Part shown: in pieces, positions 1 to 11,732 of the stretch
Numbering within the stretch: the first letter of the stretch is position 1
How the letters are laid out: every line of letters starts with the position of its first letter
Virus record (IMG/VR): IMGVR_UViG_2534682139_000022
Location: 1-11,732 of that record
Length of the DNA: 11,732 nt
Direction: 5' to 3' (one strand)
Source of the DNA: a virus
Lineage: Duplodnaviria > Heunggongvirae > Uroviricota > Caudoviricetes
Position numbers and translations under genes: made by a program
Notes under the pieces: model-generated
The model's database searches: none
What the model saw: only the letters and a program-made list of their open reading frames with translations
What the model was told of the DNA's origin: nothing

Positions 1-549
1 ATGCAATTTAATATCCCTACGTTGCTTACACTGTTCCGTGTCATCCTTATCCCATTCTTTGTATTGGTCTTTTATCTGCCTGTCACCTGGTCGCCGTTTG
101 CCGCCGCGCTCATTTTCTGCGTCGCGGCGGTGACTGACTGGTTCGATGGTTTTCTGGCACGCCGCTGGAACCAGAGTACCCGGTTTGGTGCTTTCCTTGA
201 CCCTGTAGCAGATAAAGTTCTCGTGGCTATCGCCATGGTGCTGGTAACCGAGCATTATCACAGCTGGTGGGTGACCCTACCGGCGGCAACGATGATCGCC
301 CGTGAAATTATTATTTCTGCGCTACGCGAATGGATGGCGGAGTTGGGTAAACGCAGTAGCGTGGCTGTCTCCTGGATTGGGAAAGTGAAAACCACTGCCC
401 AGATGGTGGCGTTGGCCTGGCTGCTGTGGCGTCCGAACATTTGGGTTGAGTACGCCGGTATTGCACTTTTCTTTGTGGCTGCGGTACTGACTCTGTGGTC
501 AATGTTGCAATATTTGAGCGCTTCGCGTGCAGATTTGCTTGATCAGTGA
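1..549 (+). CDS. pgsA: CDP-diacylglycerol--glycerol-3-phosphate 3-phosphatidyltransferase (phosphatidylglycerophosphate synthase)
   Basis: 182-aa ORF starting at base 1 with TGA at 547-549; translation recognised as enterobacterial PgsA (CDP-alcohol phosphatidyltransferase motif region DWFDG...DPVADK); immediately followed by the glyW-cysT-leuZ tRNA cluster as in E. coli. Confidence 0.93.
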
Positions 550-700: not shown

Positions 701-776
<76 letters not shown>

Positions 777-830
777 GTTTAAAAGACATCGGCGTCAAGC
801 GGATGTCTGGCTGAAAGGCCTGAAGAATTT

Positions 831-904
831 GGCGCGTTAACAAAGCGGTTATGTAGCGGATTGCAAATCCGTCTAGTCCGGTTCGACTCCGGAACGCGCC
901 TCCA
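831..904 (+). tRNA. cysT: tRNA-Cys (anticodon GCA)
   Basis: 74-nt sequence GGCGCGTTAACAAAGCGG...GGAACGCGCCTCCA, anticodon loop ATTGCAAAT, encoded CCA. Confidence 0.95.
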
Positions 905-916
905 CTTTCTTCCCGA

Positions 917-1003
917 GCCCGGATGGTGGAATCGGTAGACACAAGGGATTTAAAATCCCTCGGCGTTCGCGCTGTGCGGGTTCAAGTCCCGCTCCGGGTA
1001 CCA
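917..1003 (+). tRNA. leuZ: tRNA-Leu (anticodon TAA), class II tRNA with long variable arm
   Basis: 87-nt sequence GCCCGGATGGTGGAATCGGTAGACACAAGGGATTTAAAATCCC...GGGTACCA, anticodon loop TTTAAAA, encoded CCA. Confidence 0.95.
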
Positions 1004-1543: not shown

Positions 1544-1825
1544 ATGCGATGTGGTTTATTAATGGCAATCTGCCTTTGTTTGGTATCTTTTAGTGGGTAT
1601 GCAGCAACAGGAAAGTCAGATGCTCAGATCAAGAAAGAAATAATTAAAGAATCCATTGAATCTTATCCAGGCAATTGTGCGTGTCCGTATAATCATGCAA
1701 GGAATGGTAGTAGATGTGGTGGACGCAGTGCATATAGCCGTACTGGAGGGTATGACGTGGTATGTTATGAAAGTGATGTTACCGATGAAATGATCCGGCA
1801 ATGGAAGCAGGAGAATGCTGAGTAA
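1544..1825 (+). CDS. small secreted Cys-containing protein of unknown function (predicted signal peptide; motif C-x-C-P-Y...R-C-G-G-R-S-A-Y)
   Basis: ORF 1430-1825 in the six-frame track; internal ATG at 1544 begins a signal-peptide-like N-terminus (MRCGLLMAICLCLVSFSGYAA) followed by a hydrophilic body with 4 Cys; lies in an AT-rich block; the start codon is uncertain (1430, 1544 or 1562) and no strong RBS was seen. Confidence 0.45.
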   Translation: MRCGLLMAICLCLVSFSGYAATGKSDAQIKKEIIKESIESYPGNCACPYNHARNGSRCGGRSAYSRTGGYDVVCYESDVTDEMIRQWKQENAE

Positions 1826-1900
1826 TCTCTTTTAACTGATTTGTTGTGCGAGCATTATGTGCAGTTAACGGCTCACTAGCTAGTGAGAGTTCCAAAAAGA

Positions 1901-1932
1901 AACCCCGCAGTTTTTACGCTGCGGGGTTGTTA
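1901..1932 (+). terminator. hairpin plus T-rich tail downstream of the small secreted-protein gene
   Basis: CCCCGCAG (1903-1910) pairs with CTGCGGGG (1919-1926) around a loop TTTTTACG, followed by TTGTTATTC; preceded by an A-run so it may act in both directions. Confidence 0.5.
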
Positions 1933-1983
1933 TTCATGCCTATGAGATAGGGTGCCTTATCGGCCTTACCCTAGCAACCGATT

Positions 1984-2005
1984 GACGGGGAGTTGCCTCC
2001 CCGTC
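1984..2005 (-). terminator. perfect 9-bp stem / 4-nt loop hairpin immediately 3' of the Hok-like ORF
   Basis: GACGGGGAG-TTGC-CTCCCCGTC read directly; lies 10 nt beyond the minus-strand stop at 2015-2017; there is no clear U-tract, so it may be an mRNA 3' stability or fold-back element rather than a classical terminator. Confidence 0.35.
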
Positions 2006-2014
2006 GCGGTTTCC

Positions 2015-2155
2015 TTACTGCTTACACTGTAAGAACGCCGCAAACTCCGCTCCCCAGAAGCTCATCCGTATTTCACACAGCGAACCGTGCAGCATCCAGA
2101 TGATGAGGATTACCGTCACGCAGAACGTGATGGCCGTAAGCGATTTTTGCGACAT
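2015..2155 (-). CDS. Hok/Gef-family type I toxin-like small membrane protein (46 aa)
   Basis: Not in the ORF track (under 60 aa). Minus-strand translation is MSQKSLTAITFCVTVILIIWMLHGSLCEIRMSFWGAEFAAFLQCKQ: an N-terminal transmembrane helix followed by the Hok-family signature (S/D)LCE(I/V)R ... G-x-E(V/F)AAF. RBS AAGGAG sits 8 nt upstream of the ATG. Confidence 0.6.
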   Translation of the reverse strand: MSQKSLTAITFCVTVILIIWMLHGSLCEIRMSFWGAEFAAFLQCKQ

Positions 2156-2344
2156 AGCGCTTGCTCCTTTGTTGGAGAGGCGCTAACCTATCACTTGCTA
2201 GGTTGACGGGTTAGGGCCTCGGTTAAACAGAAATGTTTTCCGGGGCCTTTCCACATCCGGCCTTCGGGTATTCCCTCCGACCATCAGCCGAAAGGCACCC
2301 GCACGTAATCTATCGCTTTTTTGTTACTCCGGCAATTCTGCCTG

Positions 2345-2605
2345 TTAATTCTGAGGTAAAGGCAAACTCATCTGATTGTTTCCCCTGTGTGAAGCTGGCA
2401 GCTCATGCCACGGGATACCTTCTGATGAGTGAACGCCGGAGGCGTGTTTCGATGTGAATTTATGGAAAGCTTCCAGTGTTGAGAAGCATACGCCGCATTC
2501 CAGGTTGTTACACTGGTAATACTTTTGCCGCACGGTGTTTGAATCATTTTCCGGACGACTGGTGCGGATACGGGCAGATGCGCCACAAAGCGGACAACGG
2601 AACAT
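2345..2605 (-). CDS. ogr: Ogr/Delta-family zinc-finger late-gene transcriptional activator (P2 Ogr-like)
   Basis: N-terminus MFRCPLCGASARIRTSR...YYQCNNLECGVCF matches the P2 Ogr C-x2-C-x22-C-x4-C zinc finger; consensus RBS AAGGAGG 5 nt upstream of the ATG; the ORF is 86 aa, somewhat longer than the 72-aa P2 Ogr. Confidence 0.85.
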   Translation of the reverse strand: MFRCPLCGASARIRTSRPENDSNTVRQKYYQCNNLECGVCFSTLEAFHKFTSKHASGVHSSEGIPWHELPASHRGNNQMSLPLPQN

Positions 2606-9005: not shown

Positions 9006-9347
9006 ATGGCCATGATGATGATCTATGGCATGTTTGTTTTTGAGCTGCGCACGCTGCCGCATCAGCAGTTACAGCAAAACAAAAGCTGGCGGCATGTGAA
9101 AAATGAACGCGTTAACCGTTCAGCAAGCTGGCAGTATATCGGTGCAGGTGATGATCGCATCGTTCTTTCTGGTGTGCTTTATCCTGAAATTACAGGTGGC
9201 GAAGTGTCGCTGTCTCTGCTGACCACGCAGGCGTATACAGGACGACCCTGGCCTTTGATTGATGGCGTCGGGCAGATTTACGGCATGTATGTCCTGACTG
9301 AAACGATACGACCCGCTCCGAGTTTGATCCGTAATAACTTCGTATAG
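9006..9347 (+). CDS. P2 gpU-like tail protein, 3'-truncated (about 111-113 aa versus about 159 aa expected); stop codon lies inside the loxP-like site
   Basis: N-terminus [14 protein letters not shown]...WRH...GDD..SGVL.PEITGG resembles P2 gpU; RBS GAGGAG favours ATG 9012 as the start; the frame ends at TAG 9345-9347 inside the loxP-like sequence; the last roughly 10 codons before that are not recognisably gpU-like. Confidence 0.78.
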
Positions 9348-9912
9348 CATACATATATACGAAGTTATACGATACTGTTGTATCACACGATTCACAATAC
9401 CGATATGTCTTCCATGCAGCCAGTAACGATGCCTCTTCTTCCGTCGCAATATCCAAATCTACAGCATCCTGAAGTGGCGCAATATGCTCGCTAGCTACCT
9501 GCATCAGGCTGTTTTTTGTTTCTTCCGCCTCCTGGCTCCGAAACAGTTTTTCTGCTTCTGCATCTTTCACCCAGGATGTACCGTTCCACTTCTGAAACTC
9601 CCCTTCCGGGGATAACCAGGTGACATTTTCCGGTAATGGGCCAAGTTCAGAAATAAATAACGCGTCGCCGGAAGCCACGTCATAGACGGTATAACCCCGA
9701 TGGTCTTCAACGAGATGCCACGATGCCTCATCACTGTTGAAAACGGCCACGAAGCCAGCCGGAATATCTGGCGGGGCAATATCGGTACTGTTTGCAGGCA
9801 GACCTGTATGAGGTGGAATGTATGCATCACCTTCACCAATAAACTCATTGGTTCCGGTCAGTAGATTATAAATTTTTATGGTCCGTGAGTGTTCACTCAT
9901 TCTGAATGTCAT
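9190..9912 (-). CDS. tfa: tail fibre assembly protein (lambda Tfa / P2 gpG family) with aberrant C-terminus; native homology stops near 9400 and the frame then reads through the loxP-like site and antisense gpU
   Basis: N-terminal 166 aa ([59 protein letters not shown]...LLAAWKTYR) closely match lambdoid Tfa; the start overlaps the tail-fibre stop (TAATG); the C-terminal 70-odd residues are not Tfa-like. Confidence 0.8.
9334..9368. other. loxP-like recombination site (ATAACTTCGTATA-GCATACAT-A-TATACGAAGTTAT), 35 bp, canonical loxP plus one extra A
   Basis: Read directly: 13-bp left arm, 8-bp spacer GCATACAT and right arm identical to loxP except for one inserted A at the spacer/arm boundary; no cre gene or P1 sequence context in the window. 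Confidence 0.85.
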
Positions 9913-11732
9913 TATGCAAGCCTCACAATATAGTTAAATGCGATGTTTTTTACGGTGTTTTCTTCGTTACCCGTAGCGTTAACGGTGATGGTGTGTCCGT
10001 GGGGACCAATAATGACAGAATGGGCATGAGCACCAATGCCGATAGTGTGGTTATGGGCACCGATATATACATTGTGAGCATGCTCGCCTGCGCTCGACGT
10101 GGTACCAGTACCTAACGCAGCGTTATAACCGGCTGATACACCATTCCCCGCGCCAGTGTGACCAACAGGTATATTGTGTGAATGATTTCCAGCGCTATTC
10201 GTAGTTTTTGTGCCGTAATCAAATGAACTGGTCGTTTTAGTACCGTAATCAAACGACGATGTGGTTTTCGTCCCCAAATCCGTACTGGATGCGCTGGCGC
10301 TGTGGGTGTGCGATTTAATGCCGTCCTGTTCCTGAGACAATACGGCACGACCACTGCCGGGCTTGCCCTTAATCGTCCAGCCACGCATATCAGGAATAAC
10401 GCCTGACGGATAAGCGACTGCAAGTTTCGGGTATGCAGATTTGTCAAAAGTCTGCCCCTGCATCAGGGCATAACCAGACGGAACGGTATCTGATGGCCAC
10501 GGAATCGGTGCACCGACTGGATAAAACTCTTCAGGAGGATGAGCCGAGGTGTAAAGCTGCGCCCACGGCGACCAGTTTGCGTCGGGCGTATCCCGTCGTG
10601 AACGAATAAATGCCGGAGCATGAGCACCGCTTATACCACTCCAGCCGATGAGTAATTCGCCTTCGCCAACGGCTGTCATCCCTTTCAGGTGAATGATATT
10701 TCCATACGTTGTTGGATATCCGTTGTTATACGCCTCGTATAACTCCAGACCTGTGGCCCCCTGCATATTATCTGTCAGGGCGGTCAGCCGACCTTTTGAA
10801 GCCAGATTAACTGACGATACTGCTGTCCCATCTGACGGTAACGCCCCGATCTCTGATGCTGTTGGCTTATTCCTGGAGTTATAGTCCCTTCGCCAGCCAG
10901 GAGCATAAGCATCACCATGATTAATATAAGTAAATTGAGCATTAGGGATGCCTTCACCGCTGGATGTACTCGGTGTGGTAATGCGTATGGTCATTGCGCC
11001 GCGGGTGCCAATAACTTCCACAACAGCACCTGCAAGACAAATACTTCCGCAACCTGTATCTGTAATGACCTTATTATTTGCATAAGCCCATGAGCCTTTG
11101 CACATCCAGTAAGGATGGTTAAATGCCCCCTGACTCTCTAGCCAAAAAATCAACTGCGCAGTTGTCCATGCTTCACTATCTCCACCAATATTCAGCTCTG
11201 CACTATATGCACGGCAGGCACCGATATTTTTCGTAAAGGTGTCTTTATCAGAGATATCCTCACCATTCTTAGCTTTCTGCAGACGTTTTTCAGCATTGTC
11301 ATAGGCAGCTTTTACTGCATTTGATGTTGCCGCCAGCGTTTCAGATGTACTGTTGGTTGCACTACTAAGCTGGACAAGGCCTTTTCGCGCTGTTGTGGCA
11401 TCCTGCGCTGTATATTTTCCGTTAGCAAGATCATACGCGACCTTAACCGCTTTCGGCGTTGCAGCCAGCGTTTCAGAATCGCTGTTAGTGGCGCTACTGA
11501 GTTGAACAAAGCCTTTTGCGGTCAGCGAGGCGTCCGGGTGACGTCGTGACTGTTCATGTTCTTTCAGTTTGTCATTCACGTAATCCACTGTGGCCATAAC
11601 CATGGTGTTATCCACGGTAAGCGCCACGGTGGCAGTGCTGGATACGGTCAGAATGGTGCGAAATGTTTGTGCACGTCCGGATCCTTCGGCAACGGCTGGC
11701 TTGTAACTTTCGGCAGTATTGCCCACCGCGAT
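9912..11732 (-). CDS. tail fibre protein, P2 gpH-like N-terminal region with side-tail-fibre-type C-terminal receptor-binding region (5' end outside the window)
   Basis: The frame is open to the window edge; the N-terminal part in window ([13 protein letters not shown]...[37 protein letters not shown] repeated) matches the P2 gpH conserved region; the C-terminus carries HxH motifs ([34 protein letters not shown]) typical of phage tail-fibre tips. Confidence 0.9.
10204..10293 (-). repeat. three tandem imperfect 30-bp in-frame repeats inside the tail fibre gene (encode [10 protein letters not shown] x2 plus a degenerate third copy)
   Basis: Units at 10204-10233, 10234-10263 and 10264-10293 read directly; about 22/30 identity between units 1 and 2, weaker for unit 3. 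Confidence 0.6.

What the first reader, a model, noticed from the sequence alone, without database searches (positions are those of the whole stretch)
1984..2340. Unannotated Hok/Gef-like type I toxin ORF (46 aa) with good RBS and a perfect downstream hairpin
The minus-strand ORF at 2015-2155 is below the 60-aa cut-off of the ORF track. It encodes MSQKSLTAITFCVTVILIIWMLHGSLCEIRMSFWGAEFAAFLQCKQ: a single transmembrane helix followed by the Hok-family LCEIR...G.E.AAF signature. It has AAGGAG 8 nt upstream and a 9-bp perfect-stem hairpin (1984-2005) just downstream. Hok loci normally also carry an overlapping mok frame and an antisense Sok RNA. I found no overlapping mok-like ORF upstream (short frames stop before the hok start), so the locus may be a decayed or atypical hok homolog, or translation may be regulated differently. 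Its position as prophage-end cargo next to ogr suggests a role in prophage or island maintenance.
Basis: partly seen in the sequence, partly recalled or inferred. Interest (0 to 1): 0.6.

Follow-up and report, generated by a model that had tools for sequence, protein, structure and literature searches.

The report
Known Hok/Sok toxin module in prophage
The 46-codon gene is a real, intact and already catalogued Hok membrane toxin, part of a complete hok/sok toxin-antitoxin RNA module at the end of a P2-like prophage of E. coli; its one unusual feature is that it has no conserved "mok" leader reading frame.

Summary
The minus-strand ORF 2155..2015 encodes a 46-aa peptide with AAGGAG 8 nt upstream and a perfect 9-bp hairpin (2005..1984) 9 nt after the stop. 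It matches Pfam HOK_GEF above the curated cut-off and PHROG 251.

It is not new. An identical 601-nt stretch is annotated "Hok/Gef family protein" in RefSeq E. coli genomes. A peptide one residue away (cluster 72) was among the homologs tested in a 2026 preprint, which lists only three others as non-toxic.

The feature is a roughly 440-bp hok/sok module (2335..1894). It has a hok promoter and a 5' tac element that pairs with a 3' fbi element. It also has ucb/dcb alternative pairings, a putative antisense Sok promoter and RNA (about 2197..2253, + strand), and a separate terminator.

The "downstream hairpin" is not a terminator. It matches the terminal protective stem of the truncated, active hok mRNA of plasmid R1 and shows compensatory changes across homologs.

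Across 49 homologs, leader ORFs end at scattered positions, so mok is not conserved in this subfamily. The locus is not decayed: dN/dS is 0.03-0.35 and the RNA structure is conserved. Low novelty.

The parts
2307..2335 (-). Putative hok promoter: -35 TTGCCG (2335..2330), 17-nt spacer, -10 TAGATT (2312..2307). It starts 9 nt after the ogr stop codon (2345..2347).
   Evidence: Read from the sequence. The -10 is 7 nt upstream of G2300, where the Rfam leader model starts. Conservation across different genomic contexts begins a few bases upstream of G2300. Phage 933W has TTGCCC-17-TAAATT at the same place. Each hexamer matches only 4 of 6, so the consensus scan did not list it. Inferred, not shown.
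1894..2300 (-). Full-length hok mRNA (about 407 nt), predicted.
   Evidence: The MFE is -182.5 kcal/mol, z -7.67, with 0 of 100 shuffles folding as well, and the two ends pair. On 49 homologs 94.1% of cells are paired, against 37-45% for slid controls. 31 pairs change on both sides, against 13.8 in shuffles (0 of 500).
2286..2300 (-). tac (translational activator) element, GGGUGCCUUUCGGCU. It pairs with fbi in the full-length RNA and with ucb in the truncated RNA. It can also form a 5' metastable hairpin with 2282..2266.
   Evidence: The tac/fbi helix is 96.7% paired in 49 homologs and the tac/ucb helix 99.1%. The latter is invariant, so it gives no covariation evidence.
2240..2252 (-). ucb (upstream complementary box), GGAAAGGCCCCGG. 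It pairs with the GAGG box in the full-length form and with tac in the truncated form.
   Evidence: (helix 5, four pairs with double changes).
2215..2222 (-). CCGAGGCC, the box homologous to the mok Shine-Dalgarno of R1 (GAGG). No start codon follows it here.
   Evidence: An R1-type locus has GAGG, 8 nt, then ATG of a 71-aa Mok. The window has GAGG followed by CCCUAACCCGUC, with a TAA in the mok-equivalent frame.
2177..2220 (-). Sok-target hairpin of the truncated mRNA. GAGGC (2220..2216) pairs with dcb GCCUC (2181..2177). The loop CAACCUAGCA (2205..2196) contains CUAG, a YUNR-type motif.
   Evidence: It forms in the MFE of RNAs truncated at 1975 or 1980. The stem base is invariant in 49 homologs, and the loop is the most variable part of the module.
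2164..2169 (-). hok Shine-Dalgarno AAGGAG. In the full-length fold it sits in an 11-bp local hairpin with anti-SD CUCC (2177..2174).
   Evidence: Helix 7 is 97% paired in homologs.
2015..2155 (-). hok coding sequence: a 46-aa toxin with one hydrophobic helix followed by LCEIR...GAEFAAF.
   Evidence: RefSeq WP_000078920.1.
1984..2005 (-). Terminal stem-loop of the processed (truncated) hok mRNA. It probably blocks 3'-to-5' exonucleases.
   Evidence: Folds at -19.8 kcal/mol, z -5.88. It is 99.8% paired in 49 homologs, with 13 and 10 double (compensatory) changes at two pairs. It has the same 9-nt distance from the stop as the R1 stem 342-359. That stem holds G345 and C358, whose mutation abolishes Tr-hok (PMC9841398).
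1969..1983 (-). 3'-UTR segment AAUCGGUUGCUAGGG. In the full-length RNA it pairs with the Sok-target loop region and hides it from Sok.
   Evidence: Helix 6 has 6 pairs changed on both sides across homologs.
1950..1965 (-). fbi (fold-back inhibition) element, GGCCGAUAAGGCACCC, complementary to tac.
   Evidence: In other genomic contexts, sequence conservation of the module ends within about 10 nt after GGCACCC.
1894..1928 (-). Intrinsic terminator of hok transcription: a 10-bp GC-rich stem followed by UUUCUUUUU. Similarity to phage P88 ends at 1894.
2161..2189 (+). Putative Sok promoter: -35 TTGCTC (2161..2166), 17-nt spacer, -10 TAACCT (2184..2189).
   Evidence: Read. The complement of the -10 hexamer (AGGTTA) is invariant in 49 of 49 homologs. 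933W has TTGACT-18-TAACCT. Each hexamer matches only 3 of 6, so the scan did not list it. That R1 carries its Sok promoter at the same place is taken from my own knowledge. Inferred.
2197..2253 (+). Putative Sok antisense RNA (about 57 nt). It has a 5' single-stranded tail GCUAGGUUGACG complementary to the target loop, then a 15-bp stem-loop and UUUCC.
   Evidence: Folds at -24.0 kcal/mol, z -2.87. The 933W counterpart folds the same way, z -5.73. The ends are predicted, not mapped.

Best explanation
[quoted passage not shown] It is carried as a moron next to ogr at the end of a P88-like (Xuanwuvirus, P2-related) prophage, which lies beside the glyW-cysT-leuZ tRNA genes of E. coli. The proposed mechanism follows; steps 1-4 and 6 follow the plasmid R1 paradigm.

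(1) A weak promoter (2335..2307) makes a stable transcript of about 407 nt (2300..1894).

(2) The 5' tac element pairs with the 3' fbi element. The Sok-target loop pairs with a 3'-UTR segment. The hok SD sits in a local hairpin. The full-length RNA therefore can neither be translated nor bound by Sok. These pairings are shown by folding and covariation.

(3) Slow 3' trimming stops at the terminal stem 2005..1984. This removes fbi and the loop partner. The leader then refolds into tac:ucb plus the GAGGC:GCCUC target hairpin. The refolding is predicted by folding; the trimming is inferred from R1.

(4) The unstable antisense Sok RNA (about 2197..2253, + strand) attacks the target loop with its 5' tail, and the duplex is destroyed. 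This step is inferred.

(5) When Sok is no longer made, Hok is translated from its own AAGGAG site. In the refolded RNA this site has lost most of its hairpin. There is no overlapping mok frame, so translation is probably not coupled to a leader ORF. This step is inferred and is the least certain.

(6) Hok inserts in the inner membrane and kills or arrests the cell. This rests on family knowledge and on the preprint's toxicity assay, which included a peptide one residue away.

The most likely biological roles are stabilising the prophage or island, or aborting infection by other phages.
For: Family: Pfam HOK_GEF scores 30.1 bits against a cut-off of 22. PHROG 251 gives E 2.5e-23. All 68 database relatives with a name are Hok/Gef proteins of E. 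coli, Shigella, Salmonella and Klebsiella.

Conserved residues: five of the seven positions the preprint lists as conserved in over 80% of 1264 Hok peptides (M1, L30, C31, E32, E41) correspond to M1, L26, C27, E28 and E37. Four of these are invariant and L26 nearly invariant in the subfamily. The other two, C12 and T14, are present here but vary in the subfamily.

Prior annotation: the sequence is identical to RefSeq-annotated hok genes. A related module is present in 1554 of 5426 complete E. coli genomes.

Toxicity: cluster-72 representatives 72_1621 (V15A relative to the window) and 72_1589 were cloned and assayed. They are not among the three non-toxic constructs.

Selection: dN/dS is 0.03-0.35 against six divergent homologs.

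RNA: the full-length fold closes tac with fbi, z -7.67. The truncated RNA switches to tac:ucb plus the target hairpin. On 49 homologs 94.1% of cells are paired against 37-45% in slid controls. There are 31 double-change pairs against 13.8 in shuffles. The terminal stem and the loop/3'-UTR helix carry compensatory changes.

Comparison with R1: the Rfam hok-leader model ('sok', RF01794) matches 2300..2145 with E 1.8e-9. The terminal stem has the same position as in R1. The Sok candidate folds as a 5' tail plus stem-loop.

Context: ogr, gpD, tail sheath and tail tube lie beside it. The module is 92% identical to its phage P88 counterpart (a 601-nt query gave 95%).
Against: There is no expression data for either RNA. 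Both promoters are weak by consensus: hok matches 8 of 12 positions and Sok 6 of 12, and neither passed the scan. The Rfam match is below the gathering score (47.3 against 59) and lies on the hok strand, so it says nothing directly about Sok. In R1, mok translation is reported as required for hok translation (PMC9841398; PMC4147584). The lack of mok could therefore mean that this hok is poorly translated or not translated from its native RNA. Ensemble calculations did not show a clear opening of the hok SD in the truncated RNA: P(unpaired) is 0.20 in the full-length and 0.24-0.25 in the truncated form. The tac:ucb and target-stem pairings are invariant, so covariation cannot confirm them. The toxicity test used an artificial SD and an inducible promoter, not the native locus.
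Confidence: 0.8

Rival explanations
1. The module is a classical mok-dependent hok/sok locus. A leader ORF that starts at one of the two conserved leader AUGs plays the role of mok. These are 2284 (28 codons) and 2256 (21 codons, MWKGPGKHFCLTEALTRQPSK, preceded by GAAGG). Ribosomes translating the leader ORF open the hok SD hairpin, and Sok blocks that ORF.
For: Both AUGs are present in 47 of 49 homologs. The ORF from 2256 runs across the whole Sok-complementary region and stops 22 nt before the hok SD. In 12 of 47 unique leader sequences one of these ORFs reads through the hok start, in the frame offset I recall for the original R1 mok; the R1-type locus fetched here has mok in frame with hok. 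Mok translation is essential in R1 (PMC9841398).
Against: The ends of these ORFs scatter from -119 to +136 relative to the hok start. In 933W they stop after 4 and 8 codons, upstream of the GAGG box. One- and two-base indels in the target loop change their frame freely. The most divergent members (L009, L010) lack both AUGs. The AUGs lie in segments conserved for RNA pairing (metastable hairpin, tac:ucb partner), which explains their conservation. The AUG at 2284 has no SD and is 16 nt from the 5' end.
Confidence: 0.12
2. The locus is a decaying or silenced hok remnant. It lost mok and is no longer expressed as a toxin, like several chromosomal hok loci of E. coli K-12.
For: There is no mok. 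Frameshifted, read-through and truncated copies of this subfamily exist in databases. Both promoters are weak by consensus.
Against: The window copy is intact and identical in at least 15 listed genomes; 81 records are 99% identical or more. dN/dS is 0.03-0.35. The 46-aa length and the N-terminus are conserved from E. coli to Salmonella, Citrobacter and Klebsiella. Compensatory changes keep the RNA helices. The lack of mok is shared by the whole subfamily, including free phages P88 and 933W, so it is not a recent lesion. The preprint does not list the near-identical peptide among its non-toxic constructs.
Confidence: 0.06
3. The ORF and hairpin are a chance small ORF followed by a transcription terminator of ogr.
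For: The ORF is short. The hairpin is GC-rich and lies downstream of ogr on the same strand.
Against: The Pfam and PHROG matches are significant. The hairpin is followed by CAAUCGGUUG, not a U-run, and the scan placed the terminator at 1928..1901. The same module occurs next to lom in lambdoid Stx phages, without ogr.
Confidence: 0.01

Closest known systems
Hok 'cluster 72' of Escalera-Maurer et al. (bioRxiv 10.1101/2025.08.07.668861); RefSeq WP_000078920.1 'Hok/Gef family protein'; PHROG 251 'MokW-like host killing' (phage P88 gp52)
   Same: It is the same protein: identical to the RefSeq entry, and one residue (V15A) from the tested construct 72_1621. It has the same 141-nt ORF, the same SD (GGAGC) and the same prophage habitat.
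   Different: Nothing at the protein level. Those sources describe only the coding sequence. The RNA anatomy (tac/fbi, terminal stem, Sok, absence of mok) was worked out here, and the preprint explicitly left it aside.
hok/sok (parB) of plasmid R1
   Same: It has the same element order: 5' tac, ucb, GAGG box, target hairpin closed by GAGGC:GCCUC, AAGGAG, hok, a terminal stem 9 nt after the stop, fbi, terminator. Both have a C·A mismatch in the ucb:GAGG pairing. An antisense promoter overlaps the hok SD-ATG spacer and the 3' side of the target hairpin.
   Different: Only 12 of 31 aligned residues are identical, and Hok is 46 aa rather than 52. The leader is about 145 nt, against 168 in the R1-type locus fetched and 173 inferred for R1 from the paper's numbering. 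No ATG follows the GAGG box, so there is no mok, whereas R1-type has ATG 8 nt after GAGG and a 71-aa Mok. It is prophage- and chromosome-borne: 35 plasmid records, against at least 5000 for the R1 type.
hokW-sokW of Sakai prophage Sp5 / 933W (Takada et al. 2021, PMC8621323)
   Same: Both are prophage-borne hok/sok modules of E. coli. hokW-sokW is experimentally shown to be a type I TA system, partly dependent on RNase III and Hfq, that promotes lysis and phage release after induction.
   Different: It is a different locus. HokW is a 51-aa HokC-like peptide (MKQQKAM...DYESEK, read from primers YO-357 and YO-369). The relative of the window's gene in 933W and VT2-Sakai is a second hok, unannotated in those two phage records, just downstream of lom. 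It is 76% identical in protein. The PHROG label 'MokW-like' is a family name, not an identity.
Chromosomal hokA-E loci of E. coli K-12 (Pedersen and Gerdes 1999; own knowledge)
   Same: Same Pfam family. The best NCBIfam match is the HokA model.
   Different: It scores far below the HokA equivalog and Hok subfamily cut-offs: 35.8 against 89, and 23.6 against 73. The K-12 loci have mok frames and most are inactivated by IS elements (own knowledge). This one is intact.

Membership tests
Hok/Gef protein family (Pfam PF01848) | The profile HMM score is above the curated gathering threshold. | tested here: met
   30.1 bits against 22, E 3.7e-7, covering residues 7-44 of 46. PHROG 251 gives 82.8 bits.
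Hok/Gef protein family (Pfam PF01848) | A small peptide (about 50 aa) with one N-terminal hydrophobic helix and the conserved positions M1, C16, T18, L30, C31, E32, E41 of the Hok logo. | tested here: met
   The peptide has M1, C12, T14, L26-C27-E28 and E37 in the corresponding order and spacing, and a hydrophobic stretch at 6-22 (sequence). The list of conserved positions comes from preprint section 5. M1, C27, E28 and E37 are invariant and L26 nearly invariant in 15 subfamily members; C12 and T14 vary.
Hok/Gef protein family (Pfam PF01848) | Toxicity (membrane damage) on expression. | not testable with these tools
   The preprint cloned and assayed 72_1621 (1 aa different) and 72_1589. Only 19_179, 60_1482 and 69_1540 were non-toxic. 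The exact peptide and the native locus were not tested.
NCBIfam NF007290 (HokA equivalog) / NF007279 (Hok family toxin subfamily) | The score is above the curated cut-off. | tested here: not met
   35.8 against 89 and 23.6 against 73 bits. It is a separate subfamily within Pfam HOK_GEF.
[quoted passage not shown] | A long-range 5' tac / 3' fbi pairing locks the full-length mRNA. | tested here: met
   15 bp with one bulge in the MFE, z -7.67. The helix is 96.7% paired in 49 homologs. Divergent members (L009, L010, P88) keep the pairing with different sequences in the distal half.
[quoted passage not shown] | Alternative pairings (tac:ucb; SD box:ucb versus SD box:dcb) give a closed and an open leader. 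| tested here: met
   Both conformations appear as MFE structures of the full-length and truncated RNAs. The pairs are conserved but mostly invariant, so the support is thermodynamic rather than covariational.
[quoted passage not shown] | A stable terminal stem-loop just after the hok stop defines and protects the truncated mRNA. | tested here: met
   The stem is 2005..1984, 9 nt after the stop as in the R1-type locus. It is 99.8% paired, with 23 compensatory cells at two pairs. The function is inferred from the R1 mutants G345A and C358A.
[quoted passage not shown] | A cis-encoded antisense Sok RNA has its own promoter, a 5' tail that targets a loop in the leader, and a stem-loop body. | tested here: inconclusive
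   The hexamers TTGCTC-17-TAACCT are in the positions where I recall the R1 Sok promoter. The complement of the -10 is invariant in 49 of 49 homologs. The predicted RNA folds as a tail plus a 15-bp stem-loop. The hexamers are weak (no hit), their conservation is confounded by sense-strand structure, and there is no transcript evidence.
[quoted passage not shown] | An overlapping mok reading frame starts after the GAGG box, and its translation is needed for hok translation. | tested here: not met
   No ATG, GTG or TTG lies within the region after GAGG. The mok-equivalent frame opens only after a TAA and has no start. In 49 homologs, leader ORFs end at scattered positions from -119 to +136. The R1-type control has GAGG, 8 nt, then ATG and a 71-aa Mok.
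Rfam RF01794 'sok antitoxin (CssrC)' | The covariance-model score is above the gathering threshold. | tested here: not met
   47.3 bits against 59, E 1.8e-9, at 2300..2145 on the minus strand. The model's consensus is the hok leader in sense orientation. The match therefore shows homology of the leader, not the existence of Sok.

The most novel reading that the evidence does not exclude
The whole 46-aa 'MSQKSL' Hok subfamily (P88-like prophages, the lom-adjacent locus of Stx phages, Salmonella and Citrobacter chromosomes) works without mok. Sok binds more than 40 nt upstream of the hok ribosome-binding site. It would control hok without translational coupling, either by triggering RNase III decay alone or by releasing the dcb box (GCCUC). 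The released dcb would then re-form the 11-bp hairpin that buries the hok SD. That would be a natural exception to the textbook rule that mok translation is obligatory for Hok synthesis.
Probability: 0.45. Interest if true: 0.4.

Novelty: already known. Interest (0 to 1): 0.17.

Why it matters
For genome annotation it matters little. The gene is already named in RefSeq, belongs to a catalogued Hok cluster with tested representatives, and is common: 1554 of 5426 complete E. coli genomes carry a related module.

Two smaller points are useful. First, the module is an accessory (non-structural) gene unit found at a prophage end in both P2-like and lambdoid phages. It is therefore a candidate for prophage stabilisation or superinfection exclusion in pathogenic E. 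coli.

Second, the subfamily keeps every RNA element of the R1 folding pathway, including the GAGG 'mok SD' box, but has no conserved mok frame. If Hok is still made from the native RNA, translational coupling is not a universal feature of hok/sok. The GAGG box would then be kept for RNA structure alone. This can be tested directly with a handful of point mutants.

Tried and rejected
This was solved by aligning database relatives.

(2) Rfam at gathering thresholds found nothing in the region. The only hit came from the permissive search.

(3) The sigma-70 consensus scan found no promoter on either strand. The promoters given are from reading the sequence and from positional homology.

(4) I first took the gene for the published hokW, because of the PHROG name 'MokW-like' and the 83% match to Stx phages. 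The primers of Takada et al. encode MKQQKAM...DYESEK, a different 51-aa Hok, so this was rejected.

(5) Candidates for a hidden mok were all rejected as not conserved. They were: non-canonical starts (CTG, ATT, ATC, ATA); a 3-codon GTG mini-ORF at -39, absent from 933W-type and E. albertii members; and the two leader AUG ORFs.

(6) I tested whether truncation opens the hok SD in the Boltzmann ensemble. There was no clear change (0.20 against 0.24-0.25), so the direct-initiation step stays an inference.

(7) A global alignment with an R1-type locus gave 44% identity and was uninformative. The comparison was made by landmarks instead.

(8) The longer database proteins (59-81 aa) were checked as possible Mok-Hok fusions. 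They are C-terminal read-through or frameshift products, not N-terminal extensions.
Full report
**Observation**

The minus-strand ORF 2155..2015 exists as described: ATG start, 46 codons, MSQKSLTAITFCVTVILIIWMLHGSLCEIRMSFWGAEFAAFLQCKQ. AAGGAG lies at 2169..2164, 8 nt from the ATG. A perfect 9-bp stem with a GCAA loop lies at 2005..1984, 9 nt after the TAA. It folds at -19.8 kcal/mol, z -5.88. No ORF with a canonical start overlaps the hok start on that strand.

**Identity of the protein**

- The peptide passes the curated threshold of Pfam HOK_GEF: 30.1 against 22 bits, E 3.7e-7. It matches PHROG 251 ('MokW-like host killing') with E 2.5e-23.
- It stays far below the cut-offs of the narrower NCBIfam HokA and Hok-subfamily models. 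Only 12 of 31 aligned residues match R1 Hok.
- The large protein database returned 68 relatives, and every one that carries a name is called Hok/Gef. They come from E. coli, Shigella, Salmonella and Klebsiella, and the standard length is 46 aa.
- The longer entries are C-terminal read-through or frameshift products, not N-terminal extensions.
- Against divergent members, dN/dS is 0.03-0.35, so the peptide is under purifying selection.

**It is already known**

- The 601 nt around the ORF are 100% identical in the 15 listed complete E. coli genomes, and 81 records are at least 99% identical. A related module occurs in 1554 of 5426 genomes.
- RefSeq annotates exactly this 141-nt ORF as WP_000078920.1, 'Hok/Gef family protein', next to an ogr/Delta zinc-finger gene.
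- Phage P88 (Xuanwuvirus, Peduoviridae) carries it as gp52. The 601-nt query is 95% identical to P88; the aligned module is 92% identical.
- A 2026 preprint that catalogued 1264 Hok peptides lists two representatives of this group as cluster 72. These are 72_1621, one residue from the window's peptide, and 72_1589, the Stx-phage type.
- Both were cloned and assayed. The text names only three other constructs as non-toxic.
- The published hokW-sokW system of prophage Sp5 is not this gene. Its primers encode a HokC-like 51-aa peptide, MKQQKAM...DYESEK.
- The relative of the window's gene in 933W and VT2-Sakai is a second hok, unannotated in those two records, just downstream of lom.

**Anatomy of the module**

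- *Start.* The Rfam hok-leader model starts at G2300, and conservation across different genomic contexts begins a few bases upstream of it. G2300 lies 7 nt after a TAGATT hexamer, with TTGCCG 17 nt further up. 933W has TTGCCC-17-TAAATT at the same place.
- *Full-length fold.* The RNA 2300..1893 folds at -182.5 kcal/mol, z -7.67. Its first 15 nt (tac) pair with GGCCGAUAAGGCACCC at 1965..1950 (fbi). In this fold GGCCCCGG (ucb) pairs with CCGAGGCC, with a C·A mismatch. The hok SD sits in an 11-bp local hairpin. The variable loop region pairs with 1983..1969 in the 3' UTR.
- *Truncated fold.* RNAs cut at 1975 or 1980 switch, in the MFE, to tac:ucb plus a hairpin closed by GAGGC:GCCUC. Its loop, CAACCUAGCA, contains a YUNR-type CUAG. 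A cut at 1968 instead shows the 5' metastable hairpin. These are the states described for R1 hok mRNA (PMC9841398).
- *Terminator.* The true terminator is at 1928..1894. In other genomic contexts the conserved module ends within about 10 nt after fbi and a different terminator follows.

**Comparative support**

I collected 90 loci from viral and genome collections and annotated records, giving 49 distinct RNA-module sequences that are 68-100% identical to the window over the aligned module.

- The window-derived full-length structure is paired in 94.1% of cells, against 37-45% when partners are slid.
- 31 pairs change on both sides, against 13.8 in shuffles (0 of 500).
- The terminal stem is 99.8% paired, with 13 and 10 compensatory cells at two pairs (AU to GC, GC to AU or CG).
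- The helix between the loop region and the 3' UTR has six double-change pairs.
- The tac/fbi helix is 96.7% paired.
- The tac:ucb and target-stem pairs are conserved but invariant, so they are uninformative for covariation.

**The 'downstream hairpin'**

In an R1-type locus fetched for comparison (L093), the stem GGCGGGC-GCAG-GCCCGCC also starts 9 nt after the hok stop. It covers R1 positions 342-359. [quoted passage not shown] The window's hairpin is therefore best read as the 3'-end protective stem of the processed, active mRNA. It is not a terminator, because no U-run follows it on the hok strand.

**Sok**

On the + strand, TTGCTC (2161..2166), 17 nt and TAACCT (2184..2189) occupy the position where, from my own knowledge, R1 carries its Sok promoter. 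They overlap the hok SD-ATG spacer and the 3' side of the target hairpin. The complement of the -10 is invariant in all 49 homologs, though this is confounded by the sense-strand stem.

A transcript from about 2197 to about 2253 would have a 12-nt single-stranded 5' tail complementary to the target loop, a 15-bp stem-loop and UUUCC. The hexamers are weak, and the consensus scan lists no promoter. The Rfam 'sok' match (47.3 bits, below the threshold of 59) lies on the hok strand, because that model represents the leader in sense orientation. Sok is thus well supported by homology of position and shape, but it is not demonstrated.

**mok**

The R1-type control has GAGG, 8 nt, then ATG of a 71-aa Mok. 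The window keeps the GAGG box (2220..2217) but continues CCCUAACCCGUC. The mok-equivalent frame opens only after that TAA and has no start codon for 45 codons.

- Two leader AUGs (2284 and 2256) are conserved in 47 of 49 homologs.
- Their ORFs end anywhere from -119 to +136 relative to the hok start.
- In 933W they stop after 4 and 8 codons.
- One- and two-base indels in the target loop shift their frames freely.
- The two most divergent members lack both AUGs.

I conclude that no mok-like frame is conserved in this subfamily. The mok-less state is shared by free phages and several genera, and it coexists with purifying selection and maintained RNA structure.

**Mechanism and uncertainty**

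Steps shown here by computation:
- family membership;
- the closed full-length fold;
- the refolding on truncation;
- covariation in the terminal stem and the long-range helices.

Steps inferred from R1:
- slow 3' trimming to the terminal stem;
- Sok attack on the loop and RNase III decay;
- membrane killing.

Least certain is how Hok is translated without mok. The simplest reading is direct initiation at AAGGAG. In the refolded RNA the dcb box is engaged by GAGGC, so the SD hairpin loses its base. Sok binding would then free dcb and restore that hairpin. Ensemble accessibilities did not clearly separate the states (0.20 against 0.24-0.25), so this remains a hypothesis.

**Context**

- pgsA (1..549) and tRNA-Gly, -Cys and -Leu (701..1003) are followed by about 0.9 kb of variable cargo. 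This includes a small ORF (1544..1825) that matches PHROG 27544.
- Similarity to P88 starts at 1894, the hok terminator.
- After that come hok/sok, ogr (2605..2345), gpD and the tail genes.
- The module is rare on plasmids: 35 records, against at least 5000 for R1-type hok.

**Verdict**

This is a correct spot of a real gene, but an ordinary and already annotated one. The only aspect with some novelty is the subfamily-wide absence of mok in an otherwise canonical hok/sok RNA module.

Noticed in passing
window 2196-2214 (-) and 1969-1983 (-); alignment A2 columns 120-142 and 364-378: The Sok-target loop is the most variable part of an otherwise highly conserved module. At least six variants differ by substitutions and 1-2-nt indels. 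Its 3'-UTR pairing partner changes with it (six double-change pairs). This looks like diversification of Sok/hok specificity, which would let several copies coexist in one genome (up to 7 places per genome).
   Followed up: partly
L091 (phage 933W, NC_000924.1 45660-45797) and VT2-Sakai AP000363.1 44701-44838: The reference records of the Stx2 phages 933W and VT2-Sakai carry a 46-aa hok of this subfamily just downstream of lom, with no annotated feature. It is a second hok locus, distinct from the published hokW-sokW of the same prophage.
   Followed up: partly
window 2145-2300 (-): The Rfam family RF01794, named 'sok antitoxin (CssrC)', matches the strand of the hok mRNA. Its 157-nt consensus starts with the tac sequence and ends near the start codon. 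The model therefore describes the hok leader in sense orientation rather than the roughly 60-nt antisense Sok.
   Followed up: partly
window 9371-9569 (-): There is a full-length match to Rfam IS009 (RF02111): 169.3 bits against a threshold of 117. It lies inside the ORF 9190..9912 (-), which looks by position like a tail-fibre assembly gene (not checked), next to the tail-fibre gene 9912..11726.
   Followed up: no
window 1544-1825 (+): A small ORF lies between the tRNA cluster and hok. RefSeq annotates 93 aa as a hypothetical protein; the ORF listing gives a longer 131-aa form from 1430. It has a hydrophobic N-terminus and several cysteines, and it matches PHROG 27544 (E 1.5e-59, unknown function). 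It is convergent with hok and shares the hairpin 1901-1928 as a possible bidirectional terminator. In strain 2011C-4251 an IS3 element sits between it and tRNA-Leu.
   Followed up: no
L004, L005, L008 (genome contigs): Contigs labelled Planococcaceae MAG, Vagococcus sp. and Xanthomonas pisi carry this enterobacterial hok at 100%, 100% and 74% protein identity. Assembly contamination is the most likely cause.
   Followed up: no
L015, L020, L023 and about 20 other IMG/VR loci: Many IMG/VR viral contigs end exactly 3 nt after the hok coding sequence (locus length 1641). Prophage boundaries were probably cut at a gene end there, which removes the 3' third of the hok RNA module.
   Followed up: no
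window 1983-2006 (+): Read on the + strand, the terminal stem is followed by CGGTTTCCTT, and the scan flags it as terminator-like. It might also stop antisense read-through from the convergent gene at 1544-1825.
   Followed up: no
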